Assembly (NCBI GenBank): GCA_002633005.1
Contig: NMRA01000011.1
Coordinates: 2,048,061-2,112,060, forward strand
DNA from: Phoronis australis
Taxonomy: Eukaryota; Animalia; Phoronida
Length of the DNA: 64,000 nt
Direction of reading: 5' to 3'
Shown in pieces: positions 27,801 to 54,387 of this stretch. The notes beneath the pieces were generated by a model. That model saw only the letters and a program-made list of their open reading frames with translations. It had not been told where the DNA came from and searched no databases. The position numbers were made by a program, and so were the translations under genes. Every line of letters starts with the position of its first letter. The first letter of the stretch is position 1.

Positions 27801-30800
27801 TTAGGCTGAACATTCAGTGAGCAGAGATTTCTCAAAAATTATGCAATGACCCAATGTTAGAAATAATAGTATTGAATAAATCTTTGTTTCACTAATAACT
27901 TAAGGTACTTGTTTTTCAGTGTCCAACTTTTCAGTGAACTGAAGTCATAAACTCACGTCTTTTCCAGGAGATATAAGCAGTTTCAAGGAGCAGTGCTTTT
28001 GTAACTTTGAGTACCTGCTCGCCAAGGTCCACTCGTCATCTGTCTTTGACACGATTGTACACATTGAGTATGTTCTGGGTCATCACTTGGACCAGGACCT
28101 GGTCCTCGTGTTAGAGAGTATGAGAGCCTCAGAGGATATTCTTGTGGAAGACCCCCTGCAGCTGGCTTGTGAGCTCATTGGACGACTGCGAGAGACAAAA
28201 GGTATGGACTGAACGTTTTCTTTTTGTGGCTCCAAAACTTGAATATGCCTTGTGTTGTGTCAAAAATGTATCCATCACTCACAAAAAATACCCATCACTC
28301 ACAAAATGTACCGATCACTCAAAAAATGTACCCGTCACTCAAAATTCTCTTTACTTGCGAAATGTGCCCTTTCTTCACAAAATGTACCCATCACTCACAA
28401 AATGCATCCCTCATAAAATCTTCCCCTCACTCACAAAATGTACCCCTTACAAAATGTACACTCACAAAATGTACCCCAAAATATGTACCCATCACTAGCA
28501 AAATGTACGTCTCACTTGTAAATTGTACTCCTCACTCACAAAATGTACCTATATATCACTCACAAAATGCACCCCTTACAAATCGTTCCCTTCACTCACA
28601 AAGTGTACTCCTCACTTACAAAATGTACCCTCACTTAAAAAATGTACCACAGAATATGTACCCATCATTCACAAGATGTAACCCTCACTCACAGAGTATA
28701 TGCCTCATTCTCGAATTGTACTCCTCACTCACAAAATGTGCCCCTTACTAAAAAATGTACCCATCATTCACAAAATGTATGCCTCACTCACAAAATTTCC
28801 TCCTCTCGCACAATGTACCCATCATTCACAAAGTGTACTCCTCACTCACAAAATGTACCTTTCACGCACAAAATATATCCCTCACAAAATGTACCCATCT
28901 CACAAAGTGTACCCCTCGCTTTCAAAATGTACCCATCACTCACAGAGTGTACCCCTCACACAAAAGTTCCCTTCACTCAAAATGTACCCCTCTCAAAATA
29001 TGCCCCACAAAATGTGCCCCTCTCTTATAAAATTTACTCCACATTCACAAATGGTACTTCTCACTCACGAATTGTACATACTGATCACTCACAAAGTGTA
29101 CCCATGACCCACATAATGATCTCACTCACAAAATGTTCTACTCACAATATGTACTCCTCAACCCTCTCATAAAATGTTCCCCTCAATCACAGATTATATC
29201 CCTCCCTCACAAAATGTTCCACTCACTCACAAAATGTTCCACTCACCCACAAAATGTACCGATGACTCAAATTGTACCAATCACTCACAAAATATGCCCA
29301 TCACTGACAACCCGGGGTGAGAATTTTACACGTTTGACACTTGATAAACTTGTCCAGAGAAGTTCTGCACCATGTTACTACATCAGCATGACTAATCATG
29401 ACTAGTCATTACCCCTTATTTACAGCTGGGATTAACTGGAAAATCTAAAGGTGAAATTTTGGGTCATGAGAAAATTCTGCTGTCCTTCATATCAAATTTA
29501 CTGCTGCGCATCTGTTCCAACGCTTGAAAAATGGCAGCCATGTCAATTTATGGGGAATTTATGGCCATTAAAATTGAAAAAAAAATTGTTTTTCTATTAC
29601 ATTGCCGGTGTAATGTTGACTTGTTTATGTCATATGAATGAACTGCCTACTCAGTGTCTGTGGTACATTTCAGATTACTACTCCAGCCAGATTGAGTCAT
29701 TAGTCACACAATGTATGCATTGGTGCGATACATATTCCTTCCCCCTACTTGTACCTCTCACCTCATGGTTGACTCCCACCATGCCTGGTCTAGTCACATC
29801 GTGGACGTGTACAGATGTCATTGGTCCAGTTGCCGTCAGTCGTGACAACCAGACTGTTTTCTGTGTCATGAAAAACCACGAAATCCATATGTTTAATGTG
29901 CCAAGAAAAAAGCTTATGAAGAAATTCACTGGTAAGCTTTGTAACTGCTGGCTTAAAGTATTGTTTGAAATGTAGCAAATTCTGTGTCCAGGTGTTCTTG
30001 TTCAAATTCCCGCGGGAGGGAGCAACGAATATTTGGTGACTAATCTTATTATTTTTCTTGTTTCATATTGTCGTCACTTTGTCCGGATGTTCGCTCAATA
30101 TCTCAAAAACCTCTGGTCGGATTTTGTTGAAATTTGCTCAAGGTTCTGGGCTATCACTAGAACAGTGCATGCCACTTTTCAATCTTCCCTCCCCCTGGGG
30201 TCAGAGGGCATGGCTTTTCCTGTGTTCTTATGGGGGGAAGAGTGTTTCCGGATGATATATACTAGAGAACCGCGATTGACAGATTTCAAATGAATGAAAC
30301 TTAGCACAAGGTTGTGTGATGTTAATGCACCGCTAGGATTAAATTTTCCGGCATATTCAACATCTGCAGCACCTCCTAGTGGCTACTTTGTTCTCGATGT
30401 TAGGCTTTTCAAGTGTTGTTTTGGGAAGATCATTTTTCCAGATGATGTCTAAAGAACCGGTTGGCATATTTCAATTACACTTGACACAGAGATATATCAT
30501 GTGAATGCGTGGGCATCATTTGATTTTTGGGCAGATTCGACTACTCGAGTGCATCCAGCACCGTTTGATTTTTGTATGGACTTGACCACTGCAACACCTC
30601 CTAGTAACTATTTTGGGACGAGCTTTTCCAGATGGTATCTTTTGAACTGATGGATTTTAATGAAACATGACACAGAGGCAGTGATGTCAATGCTCATCAC
30701 AAATAATTTTTTGTGCAAATTTGACTGCTTCATCACCTCGTAGTGGCCATTTTGTTGTCAGAGGTAATTTTCATGTGTTGTTTGGGGGAACATCATTTCT

Positions 30801-33800
30801 TCACGGTGCCTACAAAACGGTTGACTCAGTTCAACGAAACTTGACACAGACGCCTGTGATGTCAGTGCACTGGACCCTTTGTTTTTGGGGTGGATTTGTC
30901 CATTGCAGCATCATGACAAGGAGTTTTTCAAATTTTGTTTGGGGAAGGTTTCTCGGTGGTATTTAGAGAATCGATTACTGGATTTCAATTCTAGAGAACT
31001 AATTGACAGATTTCAATGGAACTTGACTATGCCTTGTATGATGACAGTGTGGCAACACCACATGATTTTGGGGCTGATTCGACTACTGCAGCACTTGCTA
31101 GTGGCTCATATGTGATGCCCCTTGAGTGCATGCTAGTGCCCCATCGTTGCTCTGTTTAATTGGCACTTTCCTTTCTTTACCCTGATTCTGTTTTTTTTTT
31201 AAATTCATTATTATATTATTATAGGTCACACCAACTTGATTCACTGTATATTGCTAACTGAGGATAGCAGTCATCTATTGAGTGGGGCTGAGGACTGGAC
31301 AGTGCGACGGTTTGACTTGTCAACTGGCATCAACACAGAAACTATGAGGTTAGCACTTTTATGCACTCAACACATGTTTGGCTGCCGTCATCTCTGTCCA
31401 GGTTCCACATTAGGGCTTTCTTCGTTGACCTCAAGTTGTTTGGTCGGTAAGCAAACAAGTTGGCCAGTTGACCGGCCTAGCCAATATCGTACACTGTCAG
31501 CTGATTGACTTTGCTGTGGTGTGTTTGGTTTGAGAGCCTGATCTCCCTTTGTTCGATAGTTGCTCTAATCTCCGATTAGATGATATCTAGCCTGATGGAC
31601 TGTGCTATAAACTCCATGTACATAAACCAATTACAATTCTGAATTTCTCGTCAAATGCTGTTGGTGTTTATTTTTTGAATTACCAAAATCACCCATTACA
31701 ACCAAAGTTAAGACAACCTATTCTGTTCGATCGCATTACGAATACACTGAGTTTGACTGTGTTCATTACGCAGTCGATTATAGGATGCAACCATACTTTT
31801 CATCCATGATACAGCTAATACACAATTCCTTTGTTTGACCCAATACATTGCTTTTAGCCATATGCGACTTTAATAATTTGAAAGATATTTTGCCTCGTTA
31901 CTGGTTTTATTTAGTTTCGCGCATTACCATCATGCTAAGGTCATGTGGTTCCAATATGCTACGATTTTCGCTCCCAGTAAGACTGATCACCCCAGAACAA
32001 ACCTGCTTGTGAGCACCTTGACTCCTCAGAGTTTATAATGCTTGCTGGAGTCCACTCCCAACTGAAGCTAAGTCTTGTCATGGAACAGCTCCCAATGTGG
32101 ATAAAATAATTATTGACAAACCCAGAAATCATGACCTCGGTGGCATTTATTCATTAGTTGAAAACCTCAGTCTGTTACATGATGTGGATAGTAAATTCTG
32201 CAACCAACCTTGTCTGGTAAAGTCCTGGAGAACACCCTAATGTGGCCACTACCTAATTGCAGGATCTTCACGAATGTTGGGATTGAAAACAATTGATGGT
32301 GACTTTTAGACATATCCAGATGTTCCTGTGTCGCCTGTAAAGAATGTACTAGCAAAATTGTGATAACTGGCTATGACTAATAACTAATAGTTTCTGGGCA
32401 AATGTTTACCGTAATGAGGCAATTTCTTTTTACAAATGAGGCTTTCTCATTTAGCCTCACAATGTGTTGAAATAAGCACAATTAGCCATAAAAATGATTA
32501 GTGATAAGTGCTTGCCTTCCTCGAATTAATAAGCAATTAGTTTTTGCAAGGGCGCATTGCTACGCATTGTTTTGCAGAACTTCCATTGACAACTGACTTG
32601 AAGAACTTCAGAATCCTGGATCGAAATTCTGCAGAATTCCCACATATGTTGCAAATTCCCATTTATTATTATGTGCCTATATATACACATGTGTGTGCAT
32701 ATTGCCGTCACTTCTCTCTCTCTCTGTCTCTCTCTCTCTGTCTCTCTCTCTCTCTCCCTCCCTCTCTCCCNCCCTCCCTCTCCGTCTCCCTCGCCCCCTC
32801 TCTCTCAGTCCAGCTGCTCTTTGTTAATCTTGATGTAATGGAACTTTTGCCATCTGTAGAAGTTGTTGGAACTCAATATAGAAAGTCTCATTTGAAAAAA
32901 GATATTGCTTTCTGTTCAAGCTTACATCTGTTGGTGAAAATATGATCAATGCCTGCATGTGTATTCATTGTCTCTTCCTCATTGAATTGTTTGTTGACTT
33001 ACTTTGAAGTTGGCATGCTGTTTTTTGGTAGGGACCACGGTGATGGTGTTCTTTGTATGGTGTTGACCAAGGATGAGAGGTTGTTGATAACGGGGTCGAA
33101 GGACTACTCCTTTAAGGTTACCACTGTGAAGAGTATGACTGTACGACAGACAGTCACAGGACATTTGGGCCCTGTAACTGGCATTGCATTGAATTCATCC
33201 GACACCATCTTAGTAACAGGTTAGGCCCAATTGACAAACGGTGCATTTTTTGAAAAATGGCCTGACAATCGTATCAAGAAGCACCGGTATCACCGTGACA
33301 ACAATTAAGGCGTGTTCTGGGTGCTGTTGACACTTAGCACTGTTTTGCCGTCTCCAACTGTATTATGTTAATTTTTAAAGTTTTAAAGTCGCATGTATGT
33401 TTTTATGCACCCACATATAAATATGCCGTCATCTCTGACTGTCTGGCATCCGCAGCTGTATCTCCTAAACCCTTCGCAGGATCTTGATGAGATTTCGCAG
33501 ATGTGTTCCTGTGAAGCTGAAAACAAATGCCGACGGATCCAACCACCAGTGTGCTCTCTAGGGGCAATTTTAGTTTTTACGTTTACCTCCTGTATCTTCA
33601 AAGTTCCTCAACCTATTTTCATGAACATTAGGCATCTATTAATAAGGTGACGGTATCTCTAGGTTGCGGACGGATTCAAGGTATTTTGCGCCACTTAGTG
33701 ACCATTTTTACACTTTTCAAGTCAGTTTTTCGCGTCTGTCTCTCTGTCAACCAAACCACTTTAAGGATGATTGTAAAAATTATCATAATTATAATTATGT

Positions 33801-36800
33801 TCCTACTGTGAAGAAAGCAGCCAAAGGTAATTTTCCGACGACTTTGACTACTGTGGCACCTCCTAATGGCAGCTTTTTGACCCATAGCTGTATCTCTTAA
33901 ACCCACTGCAGGATCTTTATTAAATTTAGCAAGTGTATGAAGTTGATAACCTACATCAACGAAATTAATTCAGACAGATCTAACGAACAGTGTGTCCCCT
34001 AGTGGCAATTTGATTTTCTTCTATTTCCACTATTTGTCTGAAGTTCCTTGACGGATTTTTATGAAGTGCAGCAAATAGCTTTTTAAAGAAATGATGAGAT
34101 GCTCGTGTTTTCAGATGGATTCAAAGTATTTTTCGCCTTGTAGTGCCCATTTTTAATGTTTTCTAGTTTTGTTTTTGGCGTCCGCCCCTATATCAACCAA
34201 ACCACTTTAAGGATGATTGTGAAAATTCAATTGGCAGATATGTTAATGTGTTTAGAGGATGTCATGGTTGGCGATGATTTTCCGACAACTTAGACTACTG
34301 CACCTCCTAGTGGCAGTTTTGTTTTTTTGTGTCCATAGCTGTATCTCCTAAACCAATTGCATGCTTTTTGTATTTGTATGAAATTTTTTAGGTAGCTTTC
34401 TATTAAAGAAACAATGAGGCATTGATGTTTTGGGATGGTTTTGATGTATTTTGCGCCATCTAGTGGCCATTTTCAGGATACATTTAATCAGACCTAGAAG
34501 CACACTGTTTGTGGGTGCATTTTAATGTTCCGCGTCGCTCTTGTTAAAGATTTCTGAAGTCATTCTTGCAATTTTCCCTAATCCAGCATCACTTGTGGGT
34601 ATCTTATATCAATCGTCTAGGTTCAGCAGATGGTGCCATTCGTCTGTGGTATCTGGAAGATATGAGCCCTATGAATATCATTGAGGATCTACCAACACCG
34701 GTCATTTGCTTGGCAGTGTCCACTGACAACATATTTCTGGTGGCAGGTAAACGTTGACAGAAGCTGTACGTAAAATAGTTTCACATTCAACATTTTGTAA
34801 CTCAGAAATCAGACCCCCACTGTGCTACTTGACCAGCTGAAATTGAATTCCATGACATGCTGGGCACATTTTGAGTTAAATATTTTGAATGTGAGTTTCA
34901 GTTGTAATTTGGACATGGAATCATTTGCATATGTTTTCACTGACTGCTGATGGATATAGTGCAGTAAATTTTGTAGTTCCATCCAAATTTTAAAAACAAT
35001 GACCTAGACAACATTTTTATTGTCATCACATTTTTATTGTCCTCATTACATTTTCATAGTCATTTTATCATCATCATTACATTTTTATCGTCAACATTGC
35101 ATTTTTATTGTCATTGCATTTTTATTTTCAGCATTACATTTTTTGTCTTCATTACATTTTTATTTCCATCGTTACATTTTTATTGCCACCGTTACGTTTT
35201 TATTGTCATCATTACATTTTGCAATGCAGCGAGTTCTTACCAGGTCCTTGTCACATCAAGCTTTTTGTTGTGATATCCTAGCTTGTCATGTGATCTTGAT
35301 GAAACATTCTGGGACATGCCAGAGCTTGCAACCTTGGCTGAAAACGTGCCACAAATGTCGTACCATTTGCTGCGCTCTCTCTACCAATGTTGGTTGGTCT
35401 TCATGCATTTATATCCTGTTTTGGTTCTTGGTGTGACTGGGTCTTTTGGTATTAACTTGTTATTAAAATCATTGAGTGTCAATCTAAATTTGTGTGACAA
35501 AAAATTAGCACGTTAATTTTTTGTTGTCAGTAAGCCTTGCTGCTGAATATCAAAGAAGTTAAGTTTCTTTTACCATCACTTAATATTTACACTAACTACA
35601 TTGTATTTCCTGACCTGTTTACAACGTCTATCTTTTTGGCCAGGTTGTGAAGATGGTTGCCTCATGGTCAAATCTCTGACTACCGGCTCTGACGTCCATC
35701 AGCTACAGGGGCACCAAGGCAAGGTAAATTTCTGATGAAGAATAAGAAACAGTCATCAGGTCATGACAGCATGGTCATGTGGTACCCGTGGCATCTTCTG
35801 CCATCTGGTGGTGGATAGATTTACTTTGCTAGGATGAAGGGGACATGCACACTTAATGCCTTGTTAAAACTGTACTGTGTATTGTCTGTCCCCTGCGTCA
35901 CAAATGCTAACACGAAACAGAATGAAAAAACGCAGGTTTTCACACATCTTGGCAATTGTAGTTTTGAGTTTGTCTCTTGCATACTGCTTGAAGTACAATT
36001 TCAAGAAAACAGAATTTTGTCACAAATTAAGTCCCAACTAGTTGAATTTTAAATTGCCACTTTGTGTTTATTTGTAAAAAAGCAAACTGAAATGAAGAAA
36101 CAAGAGAATGAGTTGTCAGTTGTCTAATTGTCTTTTGTTACATATTTCTCTGCAGATCGTTGAGGTTGCCATAGCTACGGGCAGTCACCATGTTGTTGTT
36201 AGTAGTGATGATGGACAGGTATACCTGTACAATCTGCGTACATGTGAGCTGCTTTATGTGTACAGTCCTAACGACAGGCGCCTACCTGCCAGGATGGCCG
36301 TATCTACTAACAACGAGTTCGTCTTCTGCGTCTCTTGCGTTAGTAAAATTTCCACTTACTGTTTGCGCTAGATAATTCATTTTCATGTGAAGTCAAGTTT
36401 CCCAATAAATAGGTCGTAATATTTCAAGCACTTTGTTACATGGTGACCAGAAAATGTTTTGCGATGTATCCTAGCTAGTCTCAACAAATTTAGTCATTGC
36501 CAACGTACCATACCCATCCAGAATTTACATTCTAGGCTTGGAGTGGGTAAGTAGTCCCGATAGTGAACCGCATTTTCTCAGTCATACAACTGTCCCAGTT
36601 AGACCGTGTAACTAAACACATCTTAACAAAGATATTACTGTTGTGCCGAGAAGGTAATTGTTTCATTACCCACTTAGGGTTTTCATTAAGGTGGTTCAGA
36701 ATTTGCCCATGTTTGGCCATGATTGCCAAAAATGTCCACTCACAAACATGATGTCTGAGATATTGGTGAACTCTGTGGCCAAACCCAATTAATTCTGTGA

Positions 36801-39800
36801 AATGAAAGTATTGATTATCTGGTGTCCACAATAAAATACTACACAATAGAACGCCATCTGGTGTTACAGCAACAGTATTGAAGGGGTCACAGGGTCACCC
36901 CAGGTTGTGATTCTTACAGTCTAAAATCATTCAACTTTACTTTGAAAAAACCTCTCTAATTTATCTTAAGAATAAAATTCGAAGATTGATTCTTTATTAT
37001 TTAAACTGCAACCTGGTTATAGAGAATGCACGTTATTGAAGTATTATGTATCTGACAGAAGATATTAACTCAACATTTTTGGTGTCATGCTGGTCATCCT
37101 AGATGGTTAAACCCTCAATATCTTTAAAATTCATTACAAGTCATGTCATGCTTGGTTTTAAGAGCCTGATACTTGATTTTCTCAATTTAAAACCCCTTGA
37201 TATTAGCCTAGATGATTATGAGATGTTGAATTCAAGTAAACTCGAAGTCTTTTGAGAGGAAATGGTGCTAGTTTTCTGGACAGTGAAAGTCTTGTTCAAT
37301 TATTAACCAACTTTAAAACTGATCAATGCTTGAATTATGGTTTGTTAATGAATTGACCGGTGTATTCTTGTGACCATTTACCATGTAAATTGCTTTACAT
37401 GTAAGTGTCAAGTTCCAAAACAAATTGTGTCAAAAAATGGGAATTAATTTAAAGTTTAAAAATCTAAATACTGATCAAATTTCAAATAACAATACTGGTG
37501 CATTTTTGGCCATATTTTAAGAATTTGTACAATTTGTTTTCCAGAATCTGATCAGTGTGTGGAATGTGTGCAAGCGCTATTCAAACAAGATGCAAGATGA
37601 CGGCCATACAGCTGCCATCACGTCCATTGTATTATCAAGAGATGGAAAAACAGCTGTGTCAGGTCTTCTATTTTCTAGTCTTGTCACCAGGTGTCGGGGC
37701 TTTCGTAGACATTTATTGAATGTTCCCAGCTAGGGACGAGTGGAGTTCACTGAGTGCTTGCTTGGGAAGATTCGCCATGGCAAACTTAAACCATGAGTTT
37801 TCTCGTTTTCTTCTTTGGTTTGACTTTAAAATTAGTGGAAACTTCAAATTAAGTCACCAAAATCATTTAGATTCACTTGTGAACCCAATTCTCGCTTAAC
37901 ATATTGCGTTTCAATCTTAACTTGACTCGTCTGAGGAATTGTATTGATGTTAATGTTACATTAATTTCTGTTTCACATTTAATGTTTTATAATCTGCCAT
38001 TAGGTTCTGAGGACCACCTTGTCAAGTTGTGGAACTTGGATACAAGTAACCTGCTTGATAACTTGATGGGGAACGATGCTGTGGTCACGTGTGTTGGAAT
38101 TGCTCCTGACGAAGCATTTGTAGTGTCTGGTTTGAAGACCGGCAACGTCAAAATATGGAGTATAATCATGGGCACAGTCGTCACCAATTATCTGGTTTGT
38201 GTTGGTGCTACATTTTCGTTCAACAACTCATAGTTTCATTCAACCATTCCTTCTTATATTCCTCTTGCCCTTTCCGTTTGTCTCCTTATCGTCTCATTGG
38301 TTGTCTTATGACCCCTTTTATCGTCAAATCTCATCTGTCCCTGTCCATTAGAGAAAATTAGTGTTTATATAACATCTTGGTGTATTTGACTGTGTTACTC
38401 ATGTAGCGAGCTGGTGTACAATTTTCTATTTTCTGCTCAATTAATTTCTTTCAACTGATTTCAACTATTAAACTACAAGGAATTTCTTAAAATGCTTGTT
38501 ACAAATTAATGTTTCAATGTTCTGGAATCACATTAAAGAATTTTTGTCTTATCTGTGTCTCACTAGTTTCAGAGGCCACCATGCGATTATCATTCATATG
38601 AGGAAATGTTTGTCAAAATTCTTTGTCTTGATTTCATAGCAGGTTTCTGGCTTTTTTCAATATTCAATTTTTGACCTTTGTCTAAACTGTCAACCACTAA
38701 TTTCCAGGGTCATCATTCGGCCATCAGTCATGTGACAGTACTTAGTGACAGTCTACGTGTTGTTTCTGCCGAGAGGGATGGTGTCATTCACATCTGGATG
38801 GCTGATAGTGGAGACTTACTATTGTTGTGCAATGGACCGACGGAACTTATCGCAGTCTCTGGCAATGACTTGTGGGCGACTTCAGGTGCTGGCGATGAAA
38901 AGTAGGTGATACTGAAGAACAATAGTCAAATTTAATTGCAAAGTTGGTGATAATTTCGTTTTGATGAAGCATAACTGTACACTTAGTCGCACGTAGAAGA
39001 AAAAGAAGGGTGTCATATTATTTTTATGTGCTATTGACAAGTTTACAATAGGTCTTATGTTAAGTACAAACTAGAGATTTTTAATATAATCATGAAATCT
39101 AAGAGTCTTTCCCCATAAACTATTACCTGCTTCGCATATGCTTGACTGGTGATTGATTCTTAAGAGCCCAGGGTAGTAAGCAACTGTCATAGGGCAGGAG
39201 ATAGCAGCCCTGTAGGAACAAAGGAATGTCTAATATAACTCAGTAGGCCTGGACGAATATTAGTTGATGTTTTGTTAATTCCAGTTTGACCATTTGGAGG
39301 GTGGACACTGGGGATGCCAAGCAGAAGTTGACACATAGTGATGTTATTACCTGCGCGCAGTTCTCCACAGACTCACAGTATGTTATTACAGGATCGGCTG
39401 ACATGTCACTCAAAGTGTGGGAGACTGAAACGGGCAAGTTGACCCAGGTATACCAATTCACGTTTTGGTGTTTAAAGGGGGTGGACTTCCACACTGATGC
39501 ATGGCGGGCTTTCCTACATTCCTGAACTCAATGGCATTCTTCTCTTACACCACGATCCTCCCATTTCCTTATTACGCATATTTTGACCTTGCTCACGACC
39601 TCTTTTCACTTCCTGCAAACAAGTATCTATTCTCTCCGTAAATTTTCGAGGATTGGATCACTGCTCTGGTAATCAATGCTTAACCTGGAGTAAGTGGAGT
39701 TTGGCCAGTACAGTCACAAATAATAGTAATTAATAATTATATATATTCTGTCTGCTGGCAGCATTTAGTCATAGCTTTATAAAACAAATTAGCAGATTCT

Positions 39801-42800
39801 AAAACAAGTTTTTGTCTATTTGAAATAGGTGGTAATTTCAACTCATCCACTTAATAAATCTTTGAAGCAAAATTGTGGTCAGTACCTCTCGCCAACCCTA
39901 AAATGTTGAGAGCTCATTCGAAAATTTACAGGGATTTTATCAGTTTTACAGCGGAAATCGCATCTCTGGGATTGTTGCTNNNNNNNNNNNNNNNNNNNNN
40001 NNNNNNNNNNNNNNNNNNNNNNNNNNNNNNNNNNNNNNNNNNNNNNNNNNNNNNNNNNNNNNNNNNNNNNNNNNNNNNNNNNNNNNNNNNNNNNNNNNNN
40101 NNNNNNNNNNNNNNNNNNNNNNNNNNNNNNNNNNNNNNNNNNNNNNNNNNNNNNGCTGTAGCCTCAACAGTGGTGATGTCACCGTCTTAGTTCGTGGAAA
40201 TCGTAACCATAATATGATTTCGAAGTTAGAGCCATCGAAGTCCGTGGGTTTAGGGCATACTGGACCGTGAATTTCGCGTCTGTACTGCAAGGGTCAATAC
40301 TATGAAAATAAAATCCCTGGAGTGAGAGCTTTTCGCGGTGTAAGAACTCACTCACTAATCCATCATCATGGGCGCGTGACAGGAGACCGGTGACTAACTT
40401 AAAAAAACGCAAAAAGATGCAGTTTGGCGTTACACAAACAACTTGAAATCAACTGCGGGCGAAGACTGCTAAAATAGCTGCGTTTACAAAATGACTACAG
40501 CGTTGTATTGACCGGGAAGCAACCGATCTAATACATCTTGTTAACGTCAGGAGTCAAATTAAAAATCAAATGTAAAGAAAACTTTCACGATTTTCATCCA
40601 AAACTTGTTGCATTGTCCATAACCCAATGTTTACTATTACCGCTGCCTTCAACCTTCGAATTAGTGGTATTACACAACCGACGTGAATTCATGTAACCGA
40701 GACAGTAAAACTAGGTTAATTTATTTGACCCTGTGCTAAGACGAATATGCATCGACACGTAAAGTGGTATCAGCCTGACAACCTATTACGCAACTGCTAC
40801 TCTAGCCTAAAAATAGCAGCCGACCAGCTGGTCGGCTGATGGCCGGTCTGCTGAAGGGTCGGCTGAAGGGTCGGCTGGGGAGTCGCCTTATGAGTCGGCA
40901 CTGCGGGCGGCTGCCAGTCGGCTAATTTTTAGCCGACCGGTCGGCAAATCAGCCGACCGGTCGACGGCTAGTCGTCGACCAATTTCCGACCGGGCGGCCA
41001 AAAATTCGTGATGTGTGCTGTATGCCTTGAGTGAGTTACTCTATGGTTATAGGAAATAACTGTCCAACTGGAATGACTGACTGGATTTGCTTTGAGACAT
41101 ACTCAGCTTAATAGTTAAACAACACTCTGTCATATCTGTCAGGGGTCAAGGCACTGAATTTGCTGATAACGTGTATCAGAATCAGGTTTGGGTGAAATCT
41201 CTTAAAACAGGGTTTTCATAATTTTAGTAAGATCCTTTGATGTTTACAAAAGGATTTCTTCCCAATTGTTCAAAATTTTATTGTGAATATTTCATTATAG
41301 TTAACTTATCCATTTTCTTTCCAGTTTTGATATTTAGTTGTCCTTCTTAACAGTAGACATGCAGGAACAAACCACCATGTTTCCTGATTTGCAACTAGTG
41401 TCATTCAATGTTTGCTGTATGTACTTCAGGTATTAGTTGAGCATGAGAACTCAATCAGCTGTGTGGCCATCACCCGTGACAACCAGAACATTGTTTCTGG
41501 CTCACATGACAAGAACCTCATAGTGTGGTTGCTAGACACCGGGGCTGTCCTGCACAAACTGACCGGCCACCATCGGGCAGTCAATGTGGTCCAACTGACT
41601 TCTGACAGCTCAGTGGCAGTGTCTGGTAAGTATTTTAAAAATCAGTTAATATATGTGTTCTCCGGCTCTTGTTGTTTGGATATTTCTGGAAGAATAGTTC
41701 ATTTAATAGGAGGTGATATCTTGCTCGCTTGGTACATAACACAAGTGGTGCGCATAATTCTTTCCCTGATCATGACTGCTGATTTCACTTACAGCAGAGA
41801 TATGACCGGTAACGATTTGTCATTCTGGCTTAGTTGATATTTTTATTTAGTTGTGTTTTCAATTTCCGAGCAAATCCCGTCATGACAGATAACTTCTTTG
41901 ATAGCAAATTCCACTTGCACTCGGCCTTTGTGAAGGGGAATTAGTCATTTCATTAGTAGTTTGACATACACTAGACTGAGCACTGATGAGTCTCATGAAG
42001 GCCTGACATCTGTTGTTTGGATGATAAACTATAACTTTTATTGACTTCACTTATGTAAAATTGAACATCACAAATCACAGCACAATAATACAAACAAATC
42101 ACCATTGGCGACATGTAGGTTCCAAGGATGGCAGTATACGTGCATGGTGTATGAAGACAGGGACATGTCTGGCGCTCTTCGACATGCACCGACCGGTGGT
42201 ACACCTGAAGATCACCGCCACCGCCAACCACATCGTGGTCCTTCTGGAAGGTTGTCGGTACTTACCTCTGCTGTGTCTGCACAACACACCGGCCATGCCA
42301 GTCGACAGGTTTCATCATGCGAGCCAGACGAGTGTCAGAGTTGATGATCCAGTTACCACTGTCACAGGTAATGATTATATGTGTAATATTGACAAGTAGT
42401 GCAGCAATAGTTGCTAACAAAGAGATATTCTGTGAATCAATGATGCCAGGGCAGCTGGAGCTGGTCGTCTGTGCTCTGTTTCGTGATAGTAATTCACTTT
42501 TGAATTCACAAGTCGCAGACTAGTAATTTGCATACAGTCTGTATCTACGGGAAATTATTTCGCACAAAAGTAATTGCCAAAACTGATATTTCCTGTTTTC
42601 CATTAATGTCCCACTGCAAATGATAGAGTCTTTACCTATTATAATTTTGATTGATAATACTGTGCTCAGTACGAACTAAGCTACTGATTGACTTTAATTA
42701 AAGAAAAGATCTTAATTTTTTCATTTTGAAATTGAGGAATAATACAATCCCTTGTCCAACCTGTCACGTGCTTATCAGAAGACAAATTTTAATTTTAATA

Positions 42801-45800: not shown

Positions 45801-48653
45801 TCATTTTACGATTTTGTCCAATGGCTCAAAAGATGTCAATGAACCAGTACCTGCCAATCAATTTTAAACAGATATGAGTATTTTAGTACCCCCTGTTGGA
45901 CATTTTATTGTTCGGGAATGTATTTCTTTTCCATCAATTGTTTTCAATTAAAGTTTTTTGACAGGTTTTTATGAAATTTGACACAAGAGTGTAAAATAGG
46001 GCAGTGCTAGCACAGCTGATTTTGTGTACTTGAGGTTTGAAAACGTAATATACACCATTCAATCAATCCTGAAATGTTATTGAACGAGCTGATAAATAAT
46101 GCCATAACCAGTGCCTACATGCGCCATTTTTATGCGCCCACATATTTATATGTGGACGCATTATGCCGTCATCTCCGTCCATCCGGCGTCCACTGCTCTA
46201 TCTCCAAAACCGATTGACGTATGTTCATGAAATTTTGTACGTGTTCCTTTCAGGGATGGGACGGCATGAGCGAACTTTTGAAGTGTATCTTCAATTTTCC
46301 TCAACATATTTTCACAAAATTTAGTATATAGGCATCCAGTAGTGAGATGACGGTATCCTCCCGTTTTCGGATGGATTCGACGTAGTTTGCGCCACCTAGT
46401 GGCCATTTTTACTGTTTTCGAGTCTGTTTTTTAGCATCCACCCCTGTATCAACCAAACAGCTCTAAGCATGATTGTGAAAATTGGCATGTGTGTTCTTAC
46501 TATAAAGAGAACGGTTGACCATGATTTTCCGACAACTTCGACTACTGTGGCGCCTCCTAGTGGCACTTTTAATTTTTTGCGCCTATGGCCATATCTCCTA
46601 AACCATTTGCAGGATCTTTATTAAATTTATTAAGTGCATGTATATGATGATGACAATGTATAACGACGACTTTCGGACAGATTTGACTACTGGTGTGCCA
46701 CCTAGTGGCAATTTCGTTTTACGTTTATCTCTGCATCTTCAAAGGTCCTCTACGGATTTTCATAAAATTTTGAATACGGGCATCTATTGGTGAGATGATA
46801 ATATCCTCCCAGTTTCGGATGGAATCAAGGTATTTTGCGCCACCTAGTGGCCATTTTTGCTGTTTTCGAGTCTGTTTTTTGGTGTCTCCCTCTCTGTTAA
46901 CCAAATCATTCTAAGGATAGTTTTGAAAATTGGCATATATTCAGTGTGAAGAGGACGTTTGACGATGACAACTTTGACTACTGTGGCGCCTCCTAGTATT
47001 AGTTTAATTTTGTTTTGTTTTGCGCCCATAGCTGTATCACCTAAACCTACTGCAGGATCTTTATAAAATTTAATTAGTAAGTGTATTTATATGAAGCTAA
47101 TAACAGACTATGGTGACTTTCAGGCAGATCCAATGAATAGTGTGCCCTCTAGTGGCAATTTCATTTTATTCTATTTTCTTTTGTTTCTCTGAAGTTCCGT
47201 GACAGATTTGTATGAAATTTGGTGTATAGCTTTCTATTAAAGAAGCAATGACATGTTTCGGTTTTCGGATGGATTGTTCCTTTTTCTGCCATCTAGTGGT
47301 CATTTTTATGACACAAATAAACAACCCTAAAAGCACACCATTTGCGATGCATTCGGGAGCGCATTTCAATGCTCTACGTTGCTATTGTTCAATTCACAAT
47401 TTTAGGGTTGACCAACTCAATAAATTGAAGCATTTTTGGGTTGTTGATGGTTTCAATGTTTTTGTAATTTGGTAATGGAAATGTAATTCTGTCGCAGTAG
47501 TAAATATTACGAGACTAATTTTTTTAGAGTAAAAGACATCCTTCAAGTTCATTTTAGCCATCCAGCTAAACAAAGCGTAATCCAGCTCCAAGAAAAAAAT
47601 GGTCCTTTGCTCAAACTCTCCTTTCAACAACATTTTTGCCATGTAAATGTAAACACACCAGCTACAGTATATTCAAATTGTGCGATTACTTTGCATTTTT
47701 GCGTGTATTTTCTGCAGGGGTTAATCCAGGGTTTCAACAATAGGGTGTCCAAAATGGGTTTCCCGATTTCTCAGGGCATCCATGACAAGTAACCCGTGAT
47801 GGCGTTTTTATGATTCCTAGTCAAATTGCTGTATCGTATGGTATTTCACTGTGGAGACATGATTCCACAATAAGATTTTTGTATCTTACATAATTTCTAA
47901 ACAATTTTTTATTCTGGACAGGTCAATGAACTCCCAAAGCTGCTGATAGCACATTAAGAGACACAAAATACCTGTGTTTTCTTGTTTTCTTTATTTGCAT
48001 ATCCAAGTGGTTGACAGTGCGTCCTAACTAGGATGTCTAAATTTGAGTAAGGATGTCCATTTGGACACTCTGTAAGATGAAGGACTGATTCTAAGCAACT
48101 TGATATTGTGTTTCATTGAGAATAATTTATTTTTCAAAAGTAGTTGAGTTCTAGGTGCATGAAACAAAATTGTTTATTGATAATTATGAAGTCATAGTTC
48201 TTGAAACAGACCCCATATTTTTAACTGGCACACAATCATTCGTGTAGTTCAATGTCATAAGATGGTAAAATCAAGTGAGCTGATTGGAAGCTACTGTTAT
48301 CAACTGTAACCTCAACAACAAGGTATGAAGTCAACAATTACAGGTTCGATATCTGCTGTGTGTAAAGTACCGAGATCATAAAAGGATAGCTATGTTTTGA
48401 GTTTCATTGTAAACTTTTTGGCATGGAAAATGTTCTTCAAATTTCTTAGCAGTATCAATTCCAAAAGATATCTCCCCCTCAGATAGCCATCACCAAGGCA
48501 CCTCTTCAAACAGCAGTAAAGGCGCAGGAAGAAAAGTCAAGAAAGAAAAAAGCACGGCCCAAACCAAGTCAAACTTCAGATGGCAGCACCAGCAGTAGTG
48601 GGACTCAGAATGGTATCCATAGGAACAAGTCCAACCTGTGTTGTGTTTTATGA
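3795..48653 (+). CDS. NWD1/NWD2: NACHT- and WD40-repeat-containing protein (NWD1/NWD2-like STAND NTPase); 21 coding exons in window, 5' end upstream of window
   Basis: Hand-spliced GT-AG model, all phases consistent: 3795-3897, 6279-6439, 7413-7487, 7815-8883, 11393-11667, 25239-25538, 27968-28201, 29674-29931, 31225-31348, 33032-33219, 34621-34746, 35644-35723, 36156-36338, 37545-37662, 38004-38194, 38708-38901, 39285-39447, 41430-41625, 42119-42367, 45248-45372, 48450-48653 (4616 nt). NWD-type motifs WYPLDENAVPP, Walker A GHHGSGKS, LRFPATLWLKIKHDL, YNFRRMNEL, CNFEYLLAK, QLACELIGRL, many GH...W WD40 repeats. NWD1 versus NWD2 orthology not resolvable by eye. Confidence 0.9.
4147..5640 (+). 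mobile_element. Degenerate Helentron-like non-autonomous element (HINE family A)
   Basis: Decayed 5' end and ~140-155 bp units each containing ccc/cac-ctagtggc; similar to the intact copies at 17599, 23323 and 46127. Confidence 0.65.
6279..6439 (+). CDS. NWD-like exon
   Basis: ctttacag acceptor, g|gtaagt donor; SSANASLCERDISGWYQTFIKLQDIVQYG...RFRWS. Confidence 0.85.
7413..7487 (+). CDS. NWD-like exon (not in ORF track)
   Basis: tttttcag acceptor, a|gtaagt donor; VDEQIHHAFKVKPKRCAFFLRNFE; phases 1/1 bridge the neighbouring exons. Confidence 0.85.
7815..8883 (+). CDS. NWD-like exon encoding the NACHT NTPase domain
   Basis: tttccag acceptor, ag|gtgagc donor; Walker A GHHGSGKS (8270-8293), Walker B VVLVIDDID, sensor-1-like VHIIMST, GRTLTKSQQ, PLW. 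Confidence 0.95.
11393..11667 (+). CDS. NWD-like exon (winged-helix region)
   Basis: cttgtcag acceptor, g|gtgagt donor; LGYISLSSHGVTEPELLDLLS...LRFPATLWLKIKHDL. Confidence 0.92.
12899..12955 (-). pseudogene. Inverted 3' half of the same tRNA-derived sequence
   Basis: Reverse complement ctagaccgacaatctagagaccagtggttcgattcccagttggggttcctgattttt matches 13200-13256. Confidence 0.75.
13174..13256 (+). pseudogene. tRNA-derived sequence (pseudo-tRNA/SINE head)
   Basis: A box TAGCTCAGTGGTAAGAGC, B box GGTTCAATTCC, imperfect acceptor and anticodon stems, TTTTT terminator; anticodon loop non-canonical. Confidence 0.75.
14890..15070. repeat. 3 x ~60-bp tandem repeat
   Basis: tgtatgacag...aggcatcctcaggccagcccagtactgatggggcaaagc three times. 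Confidence 0.92.
16783..19560 (+). mobile_element. HINE family A outer copy, interrupted by a second copy at 17599-19208
   Basis: Partial 5' end (tatgtaggcgcatattgc...ctgtctg); unit sequence breaks at ctctaagaatgatt (17600) and resumes at aaaaattagcatat (19209). Confidence 0.75.
17599..19208 (+). mobile_element. HINE family A full-length copy (nested)
   Basis: 5' T-run and hairpin atgtgcccacata-ttta-tgtgtggttgcat, GTCY-like tract, internal tandem units, 3' subTIR gggcgcat, short hairpin, ctcttgt end; no TSD. Confidence 0.85.
19707..19852. other. Assembly gap (146 N)
   Basis: Run of N. Confidence 1.
19853..20520. mobile_element. Second copy (right part) of the 43694-44796 MITE; left end lost in N gap
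   Basis: 20045-20520 aligns by eye with 44281-44796, including the terminal ...aatacag|TA. Confidence 0.8.
23323..25018 (+). mobile_element. HINE family A full-length copy (about 11 internal units)
   Basis: 5' hairpin atatgcccacat-gtttat-atgtgggtgcat; 3' gggcacttcaacactccccgttgctcttgt; inserted in a T-run. Confidence 0.85.
25239..25538 (+). CDS. NWD-like exon
   Basis: cttcccag acceptor, g|gtatca donor; VLVWRHWCF...SQPL...YNFRRMNELWIQL; follows a 13.6-kb intron in phase 1. Confidence 0.9.
25670..25990 (+). repeat. About two ~150-bp units of a gaccttgac...tcaaggtca satellite/HINE-type repeat
   Basis: ttcaaggtcacag...gttttgacttaggaaaatgttgtttg recurs about 145 bp later; related to 51640-51990. 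Confidence 0.55.
26534..27622. mobile_element. MITE with gccgatttca(t/a)aaggtggttt TIRs (PIF/Harbinger-like), containing a nested smaller MITE
   Basis: gagccgatttcataaggtggttt versus aaaaccaccttttttgaaatcggctt; subterminal aaacctggt/accaggt repeats; TSD unclear. Confidence 0.65.
27113..27271. mobile_element. Small hAT-like MITE (cataggcggatc...gatccatccctg)
   Basis: Imperfect TIRs of the same class as the 60077-60711 element; internal G/C-run stems. Confidence 0.6.
27968..28201 (+). CDS. NWD-like exon (not in ORF track)
   Basis: tttccag acceptor, g|gtatgg donor; DISSFKEQCFCNFEYLLAKVHS...DPLQLACELIGRLRETK. Confidence 0.9.
28261..29310. repeat. ~1.05-kb minisatellite, ~20-bp unit aaaatgtacccatcactcac
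   Basis: About 50 diverged copies; explains the overlapping spurious ORFs at 28142-29405. Confidence 0.95.
29674..29931 (+). CDS. NWD-like exon (linker and start of WD40 region)
   Basis: atttcag acceptor, g|gtaagc donor; PLLVPLTSWL...VAVSRDNQTVFC. Confidence 0.9.
29998..31157 (+). mobile_element. Second HINE-like family (B) with different internal units
   Basis: Tandem diverged units (gatttcaatgaaacttgacacag...gcacctcctagtggc); 3' end gtgccccatcgttgctctgtt resembles the family A end. Confidence 0.55.
31225..31348 (+). CDS. NWD-like WD40 exon
   Basis: GHTNLIHCILLTEDSSHLLSGAEDWTVRRFD; ttatag acceptor, ag|gttagc donor. Confidence 0.9.
32712..32806. repeat. (CT)n/(CCT) microsatellite
   Basis: Direct inspection; contains a single N at 32771. 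Confidence 0.95.
33032..33219 (+). CDS. NWD-like WD40 exon
   Basis: DHGDGVLCMVLTKDERLLITGSKD...GHLGPVTGIAL; phases 2/1. Confidence 0.9.
33400..34544 (+). mobile_element. HINE family A full-length copy
   Basis: ttttatgcacccacatat start; gggtgcattttaatgttccgcgtcgctcttgt end; 7 motif-bearing units. Confidence 0.85.
34621..34746 (+). CDS. NWD-like WD40 exon
   Basis: GSADGAIRLWYL...VICLAVSTDNIFLVA; g|gtaaac donor. Confidence 0.9.
35011..35220. repeat. ~20-bp minisatellite attacatttttattgtcatc, about 10 copies
   Basis: Direct inspection. Confidence 0.9.
35644..35723 (+). CDS. NWD-like WD40 exon (not in ORF track)
   Basis: GCEDGCLMVKSLTTGSDVHQLQGHQGK; aag|gtaaat donor. Confidence 0.88.
36156..36338 (+). 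CDS. NWD-like WD40 exon
   Basis: tctctgcag acceptor; IVEVAIATGSHHVVVSSDDGQVYLYNL; tgc|gttagt donor chosen to give phase 0. Confidence 0.8.
37545..37662 (+). CDS. NWD-like WD40 exon (not in ORF track)
   Basis: ttttccag acceptor; NLISVWNV...GHTAAITSIVLSRDGKTAVS; weak donor g|gtcttc. Confidence 0.85.
38004..38194 (+). CDS. NWD-like WD40 exon
   Basis: GSEDHLVKLWNL...VVSGLKTGNVKIWS; ctg|gtttgt donor. Confidence 0.9.
38708..38901 (+). CDS. NWD-like WD40 exon
   Basis: GHHSAISHVTVLSDSLRVVSAERDGVIHIW; aa|gtaggt donor. Confidence 0.9.
39285..39447 (+). CDS. NWD-like WD40 exon
   Basis: HSDVITCAQFSTDSQYVITGSADMSLKVWE; cag|gtatac donor. Confidence 0.92.
39980..40154. other. Assembly gap (175 N)
   Basis: Run of N. 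Confidence 1.
40816..41008. repeat. GC-rich agccgacc/ggtcggct palindromic cluster, probably the subterminal region of a DNA transposon
   Basis: cagccgaccagctggtcggctg and gccgaccggtcggc palindromes; multiple direct and inverted 8-mers. Confidence 0.6.
41430..41625 (+). CDS. NWD-like WD40 exon
   Basis: EHENSISCVAITRDNQNIVSGSHDKNLIVW...GHHRAV; g|gtaagt donor. Confidence 0.92.
42119..42367 (+). CDS. NWD-like exon (last WD40 repeat and start of tail)
   Basis: GSKDGSIRAWCMKTGTCLALFDMH...LPLLCLHNTP; g|gtaatg donor; acceptor lacks a pyrimidine tract. Confidence 0.88.
43400..45000 (+). mobile_element. Old degenerate HINE-like copy split by a TA-MITE
   Basis: Decayed gtgccctctagtggc and gcccctagtgg motifs on both sides of the 43694-44796 insertion. 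Confidence 0.45.
43694..44796. mobile_element. Tc1/mariner-pogo-type MITE with ~24-bp TIRs and TA TSD
   Basis: TA|ccggattcgccctaataagcaccc ... gggtgcttattagggcgaatacag|TA; no transposase ORF. Confidence 0.85.
45248..45372 (+). CDS. NWD-like penultimate exon, Pro-rich (not in ORF track)
   Basis: tttttacctgtcag acceptor, cca|gtaagt donor; ASCSVLPIRPKMAPPPQLTSTLPPPRLPSRQASLLTIADNTP; phases 1/0 fit; no homology support by eye. Confidence 0.7.
46127..47388 (+). mobile_element. HINE family A full-length copy
   Basis: Hairpin atgcgcccacata-ttta-tatgtggacgcat (12/13 paired), ccgtccatcc tract, 7 units, 3' gagcgcatttcaatgctctacgttgctattgt. Confidence 0.87.
48450..48653 (+). CDS. NWD-like terminal exon, polybasic stretch and C-terminal CCVL (not in ORF track)
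   Basis: tttcttagcag NAGNAG acceptor; QYQFQKISPPQ...KSRKKKARPKP...HRNKSNLCCVL-stop (TGA 48651-48653). Confidence 0.7.
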   Translation, partial: QYQFQKISPPQIAITKAPLQTAVKAQEEKSRKKKARPKPSQTSDGSTSSSGTQNGIHRNKSNLCCVL

Positions 48654-50348: not shown

Positions 50349-50460
50349 GAAGTCATTTTCATATTTATTTGTGTCATAATATACATTAGTTGACAAGTCT
50401 TATGATTAATTACTACTTAATGTTATGTAATACTTAATTGTCTTAAAGGGGATGTATTTA

Positions 50461-52854: not shown

Positions 52855-54121
52855 TTCTTATGCGCCCTCATGTTTATATGTGGGTGCATATTACCTTCGT
52901 CTCTGTCTCGGCGTCCGCAGTGTATCTCCTACCCCTTGAAGGAGGGGGGCAGCCTGTGTTCCTCTGAAGCTCAGACGACGGTTGACGACGAATTTCGGAC
53001 GGATCCGACTACCGGTGTGCCCCCTAGTGGCAATTTTTTTTTTTTTTACGTTTACCTCTGTATCTTCAAAGGTCCTCAGTGGATTTTCATGAAATATGGA
53101 AGATCATGTAGTGCGATGATGCTATCGTCCCGGCGTTTAAGTTCAGCCGGATTTGAAGTATTTTGCTCCATCTAGTGGCCATTTTTACTGTTTTCTGGTC
53201 TGTTTTTGGCGTCTATCAACCAAGTCACTCTAAGGAGGATTGTGAAAATTGGTATATATGCTCTTAGTGTGAAGATGACTGTTGATAATAATTTTCCGAC
53301 GACTGTGGCGCCTCCAGTAGTAGCAATTATGTTTTTGCGCCCGTAGCTGTATCTCCTAAACCCACGGCAGGTTCTTTTTTATGAAATTTAGCAAGTTTAT
53401 TAATGTGAAGTTGACAACGAACGACAACTTTCAGGCGGATCCGACGAACACCGTGGCAATTTCGTTTTTTCGTTTTCCTGTGTTCCTCTGAATTTCCTTG
53501 GCGGATTTTTATAATAGCTTTAAATTAAAGAAACGATGATATGTTCCCGTTTTGGATGAATTTGACGTTTTTATGCCAGCTAGTGGCCATTTTTATGACA
53601 CAATAAACCCCCCTAGAACNCGCCACCTAGTGGCCATTTTTACTGTTTTCTGGTCTGTTTTTGGCGTCTATCAACCAAGTCACTCTAAGGATGATTGTGA
53701 AAATTGGTATATATATGCTCTTAGTGTGAAGAGGACTGTTGATAATAATTTTCCGACGACAGTGGCTCCTCCAGTAGTAGCAATTATGTTTTTGCGCCCG
53801 TAGCTGTATCTCCTGAACCCACGGCAGGTTCTTTTTTATGAAATTTAGCAAGTTTATTAATGTGAAGTTGACAACGAACGACAACTTTCAGGCGGATCCG
53901 ACGAACACCGTGGCAATTTCGTTTTTTCGTTTTCCTGTGTTCCTCTGAATTTCCTTGGCGGATTTTTATAATAGCTTTAAATTAAAGAAACGATGATATG
54001 TTCCCGTTTTGGATGAATTTGACGTTTTTATGCCAGCTAGTGGCCATTTTTATGACACAATAAACCCCCCTAGAACCACACCATTTGCGCTGGACGCATT
54101 TCAACGCTTCACGTTGCTCGT
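52855..54121 (+). mobile_element. HINE family A copy with a near-identical ~450-bp duplication around a single N (53620)
   Basis: Same termini as the other copies; 53169-53619 and 53621-54075 are almost identical. Confidence 0.8.
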
Positions 54122-54387
54122 CCATCTAGAGTTTAAAGAATCTTGGATGCCTGATATTTTGTAGCCAGAAAGCAAGTCAGTTGCCTAACGGCAATCTCGA
54201 TCCGGTGTTACCCGACCGTCAAGTTCATTAGCACACAGCACGGTATATTTAGCGTTAATAAGAGAGGCTCCCACCTTAAAGGAGAGCCAAAAAGCCACAG
54301 ACTAACTACTTGCCATTAGGTACACCCATGAAAAACGGGTAATTTTTCTTTTATGTTCATTTTCAGTGACGGATCATGATCTCATAG

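What the first reader, a model, noticed from the sequence alone, without database searches (positions are those of the whole stretch)
46127..47388. Mobile Helentron-like element carrying a phased array of CTCF-consensus motifs (~150-bp spacing, ~450-bp trimer)
Seen: the best-conserved part of each internal unit is GCGCCACCTAGTGGCCA, GTGCCCCCTAGTGGCAA or GCGCCTCCTAGTGGCAG. In this copy they start at 46389, 46550, 46695, 46837, 46986, 47142 and 47286 (spacing 142-161 bp). The three subtypes cycle as a ~440-450-bp higher-order unit. By eye there are roughly 60 such motifs, many degenerate, across about 10 copies in the window. Established: the reverse complement TGGCCACTAGGTGGCGC fits the bilaterian CTCF core consensus (TGGCCASYAGRKGGCRS). 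The termini (5' palindromic subTIR, GTCY tract, 3' subTIR plus stem-loop, T-run target, no TSD) match Helentron-associated non-autonomous elements such as DINE-1/HINE. Inference: a rolling-circle element that disperses cassettes of 5-11 co-oriented, near-nucleosome-spaced CTCF sites. It could act as a mobile insulator/loop-extrusion barrier, a CTCF sponge, or self-protection from silencing. I cannot tell whether this family is already described.
Basis: partly seen in the sequence, partly recalled or inferred. Interest (0 to 1): 0.85.

Follow-up and report, generated by a model that had tools for sequence, protein, structure and literature searches.

The report
Rolling-circle transposon carrying CTCF-motif arrays
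A very abundant non-coding jumping element of a known rolling-circle type carries a row of repeats that each match the binding motif of the genome-folding protein CTCF and nearly always points the same way as the host transcript around it; the motif likely helps the element itself spread, it decays like ordinary DNA once a copy has landed, and binding is untested.

Summary
46127-47389 is a non-autonomous Helentron-type element (HINE): 5' subTIR and hairpin, GTCY-like tract, 3' subTIR and stem-loop, T-flanked ends. It holds seven co-oriented motifs at the stated positions, in an A-B-C trimer (145/161/145 bp). The motif is the longest block shared by the three unit types. Its variants shared between copies are halved (0.083 vs 0.164), but private mutations are not (0.054 vs 0.053), and its CpG decays like other CpGs. 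So the constraint acted on the transposing source copies, not on landed copies: this favours a selfish role over a host insulator. The 145-161 bp period is ordinary for HINE repeats. Unexpected: 46 of 46 repeat hits in the window lie on the gene strand, and 95-99% of family-wide RNA signal is sense, against 47-62% for other repeats. T-run asymmetry predicts only about 60%. CTCF binding, a host CTCF gene and an autonomous partner could not be tested. Verdict: new variant of a known kind.

The parts
46127..47389 (+). Whole non-autonomous Helentron-type element (HINE); the terminal Ts may belong to the target
   Evidence: 5' boundary from loose ends of 65 and 73 contigs
46132..46161 (+). 5' subTIR plus its inverted repeat, forming a hairpin
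   Evidence: self-complementary BLAST hit; ssDNA fold of 46125-46170 at -10.1 kcal/mol
46168..46191 (+). Eroded GTCY-like microsatellite tract
   Evidence: sequence; a longer tract follows 46185 in RNA reads of other copies
46192..46290 (+). Variant first unit or spacer without the motif, shared with other genomic copies
   Evidence: not aligned to most window copies; related letters as loose ends at 52993 and 46669
46291..47308 (+). Central tandem array A-B-C-A-B-C-A'
   Evidence: profile hits 46291-46734, 46739-47183, 47191-47308; alignment
46389..46405 (-). CTCF-consensus motif, unit A (reads as the consensus on the minus strand)
46476..46487 (+). Second conserved box (TGAAAATTGGCA type), one per unit
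   Evidence: 12 of 15 three-way identity; no clear excess conservation across copies, p=0.18
46550..46566 (-). CTCF-consensus motif, unit B
46695..46711 (-). CTCF-consensus motif, unit C
46837..46853 (-). CTCF-consensus motif, unit A (second)
46986..47002 (-). Degenerate motif, unit B (second)
   Evidence: 3 mismatches
47142..47158 (-). Motif, unit C (second)
   Evidence: 1 mismatch
47286..47302 (-). Degenerate motif of terminal unit A'
   Evidence: 3 mismatches
47357..47364 (+). 3' subTIR (7 of 8 complementary to 46132-46139)
47367..47381 (+). 3' stem-loop, 8 bp from the end
   Evidence: same stem in the other full copies
17599..19208 (+). Full copy, nested in the same orientation inside an older copy
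16777..19556 (+). Older copy split by the nested insertion (16777-17598 and 19209-19556)
23323..25019 (+). Full copy, 10 motifs
33400..34545 (+). Full copy
52855..54122 (+). Full copy with a recent 457-bp internal duplication (98% identity; an N at 53620)
4154..5645 (+). Old, diverged copy or copies
7787..42399 (+). Host NACHT plus WD40 gene (exon fragments) in whose introns several copies lie
   Evidence: NACHT at 7787-8884; WD40 in 4 of 6 window ORFs tested; joined gene model inferred

Best explanation
This is a high-copy non-autonomous Helentron-type element whose ~150-bp repeat units each carry a CTCF-consensus motif that was conserved in the transposing source copies but decays neutrally after insertion, so the motif likely recruits host CTCF (or a zinc-finger protein with similar specificity) for the element's own benefit. 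Shown: HINE anatomy, the A-B-C trimer, the consensus match, constraint on shared but not private variants, ordinary CpG decay in the motif, and near-complete co-orientation with host transcription. Inferred: (1) an autonomous Helentron elsewhere supplies RepHel and copies the element as a single strand into T-runs without a duplication; (2) source copies that bind CTCF at 145-161 bp intervals would leave too little room for a nucleosome between sites, stay open and unmethylated, and so be copied more often; (3) the single strand is likely joined to the exposed non-template strand of transcribed DNA, which would fix the sense orientation, perhaps reinforced by loss of antisense copies, whose strand carries an AATAAA in each trimer; (4) most landed copies become methylated and lose binding.
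For: Anatomy as defined in PMC4067079 and PMC7492417 is present in five copies. Consensus match 0/1/0 mismatches in the 14-mer core; 0 of 400 shuffles reach 0 mismatches for A or C, 0 of 400 reach 1 for B. The motif is the longest three-way identical block of units only 59-66% alike (13 of 15, p=0.014; 9-bp run, p=0.02). Across 22 segments found with the motif masked, the core is 0.859 identical vs 0.763 class-matched; window-level null p=0.0015. Shared variants 60/723 vs 1082/6584; private 39/723 vs 350/6584. Genomic contig depth peaks at all three motifs. Motif CpG (core position 12, methylation-sensitive per PMC10484683) is intact in 13 of 30 vs 132 of 346. Orientation: 46 of 46 trimer hits and 11 of 11 5' modules at E<1e-3 on +; RNA sense share 0.95-0.99 vs 0.47-0.62 for three other repeat regions; 211 reads in one run extend past the 5' end into mixed flanks; T-run bias only 60-62%. 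An annelid has CTCF with the motif topping its open chromatin (PMC7854359).
Against: No binding data, no position-weight-matrix score, no host CTCF gene shown (no genome held); host lineage rests on one weak named hit (gastropod, 33%), and flatworms lack CTCF. Positions I treated as free, by a recalled consensus, are as conserved as specified ones (0.867 vs 0.855). A second box with no CTCF likeness is almost as conserved between unit types. No TGCAG-type upstream motif (recalled) within 30 bp. Only 10 of 51 aligned instances keep a perfect core. CTCF-like tandem arrays also turn up in bacterial DNA (L009; L010). The shared/private split uses 21 segments from about seven insertions; alignment columns are not independent, and ambiguous alignment could inflate shared variation outside the motif. 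The private-rate test has 39 events and cannot exclude weak selection. RNA strand bias could be inflated by early termination at antisense copies or by a few abundant transcripts.
Confidence: 0.5

Rival explanations
1. The copies are working, host-maintained insulators or loop-extrusion barriers: dispersed cassettes of co-oriented CTCF sites pointing back to the promoter.
For: Strong consensus match; co-orientation with transcription; transposon-borne CTCF sites are bound in zebrafish (TDR13B 2874 copies, PMC7182764 Table S3).
Against: Private mutation rate equal inside and outside the motif; motif CpG decays like others; roughly one motif per kb inside a gene is far denser than known boundaries (own knowledge); in an annelid CTCF motifs in open chromatin are mostly single and promoter-near.
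Confidence: 0.12
2. The conserved box is a cis-signal for the Helentron's own machinery (a RepHel zinc-finger site, or a hairpin with CTAG used as a nick or pause signal) and resembles the CTCF consensus by coincidence.
For: Constraint is confined to the source lineage; unit A folds a 5-bp stem around CTA; CTAG fits the CTRR end of canonical Helitrons (PMC4067079); conserved boxes and palindromes are reported in other HINE repeats (PMC3879986); look-alike arrays occur in bacteria.
Against: The B and C consensus break the stem without compensation; a full 14-17 bp consensus match is rare in shuffles; 3.35 million characters of oyster HINE arrays hold CCTAGTGG only 6 times and its complement 45 times, so it is not a general Helentron requirement.
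Confidence: 0.23
3. A chance CTCF-like word in the founding monomer was carried along by tandem amplification; its conservation is a by-product of local mutation rates, gene conversion or alignment, and the orientation bias has a separate cause.
For: Significance between unit types is modest (p=0.014-0.02); unit B alone is not significant across copies (p=0.08); neutral decay in copies.
Against: The motif survives while the three units diverged by 35-40%; shared variation is halved for both C/G and A/T positions; genome-wide depth peaks on all three motifs.
Confidence: 0.15

Closest known systems
HINE / DINE-1 (Thomas, Vadnagara, Pritham 2014; PMC4067079; Background and first part of Results read)
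   Same: subTIRs, 5' inverted repeat, microsatellite, central repeats, 3' stem-loop, T-rich target, no target modification, no coding capacity.
   Different: No CTCF-type motif or transcription-linked orientation in the parts read; here the subTIR is short (8-9 bp) and no autonomous partner is shown.
Cg_HINE elements of Pacific oyster (PMC7492417; parts 1-2, section 9, passages and supplement searches)
   Same: Left module with subTIR, IR and GTCY; 140-180 bp central monomers; right module with subTIR and palindrome; two conserved boxes in some monomers.
   Different: Their 13 array clusters essentially lack the motif (long cells are cut in display); no ordered trimer reported in the parts read; integration 'in both orientations' of the assembly, with no test against transcription.
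DTC84 / pearl elements of bivalves (PMC3879986; passages)
   Same: Ordered array of ~160-bp core-repeat variants with a low-variability segment in each unit.
   Different: The conserved segment is a 12-nt palindrome, not a CTCF-type word; 'CTCF' occurs 0 times.
CTCF-bound non-autonomous DNA transposons of zebrafish, e.g. TDR13B (PMC7182764; passages and supplement Table S3)
   Same: Non-autonomous DNA elements dispersing CTCF sites in thousands of copies.
   Different: Binding shown by ChIP; whether they are rolling-circle or carry arrays was not seen in what I read.
DINE-1-like elements supplying MSL binding sites in Drosophila miranda (passage in PMC4067079)
   Same: A rolling-circle non-autonomous element spreading sites for a chromatin complex.
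   Different: There the host co-opted the sites; here landed copies show no sign of selection.
Paramecium Helitrons with absolute strand bias at telomeres (PMC13085455; passages)
   Same: A rolling-circle element with extreme orientation bias, explained by insertion into one strand.
   Different: The strand is set by telomeric repeats, not by transcription; autonomous elements of another clade.

Membership tests
HINE (non-autonomous Helentron) | Subterminal inverted repeats a few bp from the 5' end and tens of bp from the 3' end | tested here: met
   46132-46139 vs 47357-47364, 7 of 8; 1-4 mismatches in 10 across five copies, 22-24 bp from the end; shorter than the 11-15 bp in the papers
HINE (non-autonomous Helentron) | 5' inverted repeat or palindrome at the subTIR | tested here: met
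   hairpin 46132-46161; self-complementary hits in all five full copies
HINE (non-autonomous Helentron) | 3' stem-loop after the subTIR | tested here: met
   47367-47381
HINE (non-autonomous Helentron) | Microsatellite and central tandem repeats | tested here: met
   eroded GTCY tract, longer in other copies; trimer array
HINE (non-autonomous Helentron) | Insertion at TT with no target-site duplication | tested here: inconclusive
   T-flanked, <=2 bp duplication in 4 of 5 copies, 4 bp at one shift in the fifth; nested site fits insertion at TT within 2-3 bp uncertainty; no empty allele among the joints shown (604 rows not shown)
HINE (non-autonomous Helentron) | Autonomous RepHel-endonuclease partner with the same ends | not testable with these tools
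   no genome held; no long transposase-sized ORF in the window
Canonical Helitron | 5' TC, 3' CTRR, insertion between A and T | tested here: not met
   ends are T-run-ATG and CTMTTGT(T)
CTCF binding site | Match to the 12-15 bp core | tested here: met
CTCF binding site | High score with a published weight matrix (MA0139) | not testable with these tools
   no matrix in the script machine or in the supplement parts read
CTCF binding site | Upstream motif for ZF9-11 (optional feature) | tested here: not met
   no TGCAG (recalled motif) within 30 bp upstream in the three unit consensuses
CTCF binding site | CTCF gene in the host and occupancy in vivo | not testable with these tools
   no genome; no ChIP or ATAC run among the 8 listed
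Host-maintained insulator array | Purifying selection and protection from CpG decay at landed copies | tested here: not met
   private rate 0.054 vs 0.053; CpG intact 13/30 vs 132/346

The most novel reading that the evidence does not exclude
A rolling-circle transposon family has been selected to hijack host CTCF: multi-site arrays keep donor copies open and replicating, and the element inserts into the displaced strand of transcribed genes, seeding the genome with tens of thousands of promoter-facing CTCF arrays that titrate CTCF or stall cohesin while young.
Probability: 0.25. Interest if true: 0.82.

Novelty: new variant of a known kind. Interest (0 to 1): 0.58.

Why it matters
Transposon-borne CTCF sites are usually read as gifts to the host. 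Here the mutation pattern separates the two stages and points to selection on the element while it replicates, which offers a reason why such sites arise in mobile DNA at all. The 95-99% co-orientation with host transcription, if confirmed genome-wide, makes an open question testable: how rolling-circle transposons find a single-stranded target. It also warns that motif scans for CTCF in invertebrate genomes can be swamped by one repeat family.

Tried and rejected
Tandem Repeats Finder did not report the focal array; it found only the 457-bp duplication at 53168. Three-motif pattern scans: 0 loci in viral contigs, 9 in metagenomes, 1 in prokaryote genomes. None of the 9 belongs to this family: BLAST found only the 19-20 bp motif in 3 of 9. 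They were selected by the pattern, so they show no enrichment; L010 was not examined further. Rfam: one chance-level hit (E 0.54); no tRNA, so no support for a tRNA-derived SINE. Lineage: Atlas unavailable, NACHT exon 0 hits at 1e-20, galactosyltransferase 6 hits at 33-40%, one named; I conclude only 'animal, possibly lophotrochozoan'. My guess that oyster HINE repeats carry the motif was not supported. Hairpin as the main constraint rejected: B and C break the stem. Replication-linked orientation rejected as sole cause: it would not make RNA reads from many loci sense-biased (inference). T-run asymmetry rejected as sufficient (60-62%). The automatic unit typing was mis-offset and is not used. 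No listed holder of the stretch was on record as RNA; the RNA runs laid were added by species label. Three papers asked for by id were not held. Literature searches that found no description of a CTCF-motif HINE or of its sense bias: (listings; open-licence library only; Repbase and Dfam not searchable).

Full report
1. Observation. A scan for GYGCCHCCTAGTGGC with up to 3 mismatches gives 56 hits in the window, all on the + strand. Most fall in runs spaced about 140-180 bp. BLAST of the focal copy and profile searches define five copies with both ends (17599-19208, 23323-25019, 33400-34545, 46127-47389, 52855-54122) and many fragments. The repeat is a 451-bp trimer of units A, B, C (145, 161, 145 bp; 59-66% pairwise identity), and window segments are 66-93% identical to its consensus.

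2. What the element is. The left end has a T-run, a subTIR with its inverted repeat (46132-46161, -10.1 kcal/mol for 46125-46170 as single-stranded DNA) and an eroded GTCY-like tract. The right end has the complementary subTIR (47357-47364), a stem-loop (47367-47381) and terminal Ts. This is the anatomy given for HINE/DINE-1 in PMC4067079 (Background and first part of Results read) and for oyster Cg_HINE in PMC7492417. In two DNA runs of one sample, 65 and 73 contigs leave the element at exactly 46127 into unrelated AT-rich flanks. Summed contig depth is 5.6e5 over the element against about 45 on unique DNA, and 3.2e6 at motif A at 80% likeness. The tool warns this is no copy number; I take it only as an order of 10^4-10^5 units (inference). 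Flank comparison shows at most 2 duplicated bases in 4 of 5 copies. One copy (17599-19208) is nested in an older one at a TT, within 2-3 bp of uncertainty. No empty allele was seen among the joints displayed and no autonomous partner could be sought. The host is an animal: a NACHT-WD40 gene on + and an intronless galactosyltransferase ORF on + whose only named homologue is from a gastropod at 33%.

3. The CTCF-like motif. None of 400 dinucleotide shuffles per unit did as well in either test. No weight matrix was available. PMC10484683 (passages) confirms CCA at core 1-3, methylation-sensitive C at 2 and 12, and G or T at 9. Between unit types the motif is the best block (13 of 15 columns identical, p=0.014; 9-bp run, p=0.02), followed by a TGAAA(A/T)TTGGCA box (12 of 15). 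Across 22 segments retrieved with the motif masked, raw conservation is unremarkable (percentiles 88, 55, 85). After matching for base and CpG class it is 0.859 vs 0.763, and a window-level null gives p=0.0015. Genome-wide, contig depth peaks at all three motifs; 1 of the 40 listed differences (of 93) falls in the 45 core positions, where about 4 would be expected. This profile also depends on where the reference copy has private changes.

4. When the constraint acted. I dropped one of the two recently duplicated segments, leaving 21. Variants seen in one segment only occur at 39/723 in the motif and 350/6584 elsewhere (p=0.93). Variants shared by several segments occur at 60/723 and 1082/6584. 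The halving holds without CpG sites and for C/G and A/T positions separately. The motif CpG is intact in 13 of 30 cases against 132 of 346 for other CpGs. I read private variants as post-insertion decay and shared variants as mostly differences between source lineages (inference; recurrent mutation also contributes). The motif was therefore kept while the element was replicating and is not kept, nor shielded from methylation, once landed. Against this reading: positions free in a recalled consensus are as conserved as specified ones, there is no upstream motif, and the sample is small.

5. Orientation. All 46 trimer-profile hits, all 7 right-end hits and the 11 left-end modules at E<1e-3 are on + (minus-strand left-end hits are only the hairpin's self-match); the reversed-window control gave 1 weak hit. 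Both identified genes are on +, and unique DNA between 45085 and 50505 shows RNA almost only from one strand, the same as the element. In three stranded RNA runs the family's reads are 0.95-0.99 on that strand, against 0.47-0.62 for three other repeat regions in the same lay. In one run 211 reads extend past the 5' end into mixed flanks (agreement 0.39), and no sharp start was flagged near the 5' end. So the reads mostly come from host transcripts running through copies, not from an internal promoter (inference). T-runs outside the copies are only 60-62% on +, and 0.62^11 = 0.005. The minus strand carries one AATAAA per trimer, so early termination or purging of antisense copies may add to the bias.

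6. How it most likely works. RepHel from an unseen autonomous Helentron would copy the element as a single strand into T-runs (from family knowledge). Source copies that bind CTCF every 145-161 bp would leave less than a nucleosome's 147 bp between footprints, stay open and be copied more often (inference). Insertion into the displaced non-template strand would give the sense bias (inference). Landed copies become methylated and decay (supported). Overall confidence 0.5: about 0.9 for the HINE identity, 0.75 for source-level constraint, 0.55 for CTCF as the binder. Rivals: a signal for the element's own protein (0.23), a hitch-hiking chance word (0.15), a host-maintained insulator (0.12).

7. 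Comparison with what is known. HINEs with 140-180 bp central repeats are established, so the spacing needs no special explanation. The oyster arrays essentially lack the motif (CCTAGTGG 6, complement 45, in 3.35 million characters). Ordered repeat variants with a conserved segment are known from DTC84. CTCF-bound non-autonomous DNA transposons are known in zebrafish. Absolute strand bias is known for Paramecium Helitrons at telomeres. My searches of the open library found no paper on CTCF-type arrays in a HINE or on transcription-linked orientation; subscription papers, Repbase and Dfam were not searched. Pattern scans found unrelated tandem arrays with the same word, at least one in bacterial DNA and one in a cyanobacterial genome, so a look-alike alone proves nothing. 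Earlier notes of this scan report CTCF-motif repeats in other transposons; they are unchecked leads.

8. Verdict. Real feature; a new variant of a known kind; interest 0.58. The insulator reading is weakened, the selfish-use reading strengthened, and the sense-strand bias is the most surprising result.

Noticed in passing
whole window; RNA lays over 43000-55500 and 46330-46749: All copies lie on the gene strand and 95-99% of family RNA signal is sense, against 47-62% for other repeats.
   Followed up: partly
17599-19208: A full copy is nested, in the same orientation, inside unit B of an older copy of the same family.
   Followed up: yes
7787-42399: Intron-rich NACHT plus WD40 gene on +; its NACHT exon had no homologue at E<=1e-20 among longer proteins.
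   Followed up: partly
58526-59902: Intronless beta-1,3-galactosyltransferase ORF (437 aa from the first Met), only 33-40% to its 6 best hits.
   Followed up: partly
28263-29310: 20-bp minisatellite, about 55 copies, strongly C-skewed on +, in an intron.
   Followed up: no
43834-45084 and 54259-55092: Two other high-copy repeat families with RNA on both strands; the second gives many reads that switch strand at 54680/54762, suggesting an inverted-repeat element.
   Followed up: no
32667-32806: A lone 5' module of the element followed by a (TC)n microsatellite.
   Followed up: no
10933-11279 and 12885-13270: Palindromic or inverted-repeat segments, possibly MITEs.
   Followed up: no
45085-50505: Low-level + strand RNA across unique DNA downstream of the NACHT-WD40 exons; no gene model made.
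   Followed up: no
L009:1485-2045 and L001:1467-2043: A 21/43-bp tandem repeat with a CTCF-like word in GC-rich contigs of 79 and 148 kb; L009 lies beside a response-regulator/LuxR gene, so it is bacterial.
   Followed up: partly
L006:402-1389; L005; L002; L008: Unrelated tandem arrays (145, 38, 38/130, 37 bp units) each carrying a CTCF-like word per unit, in contigs of unknown origin.
   Followed up: no
51061: A 29-bp insertion in one DNA run relative to the window.
   Followed up: no
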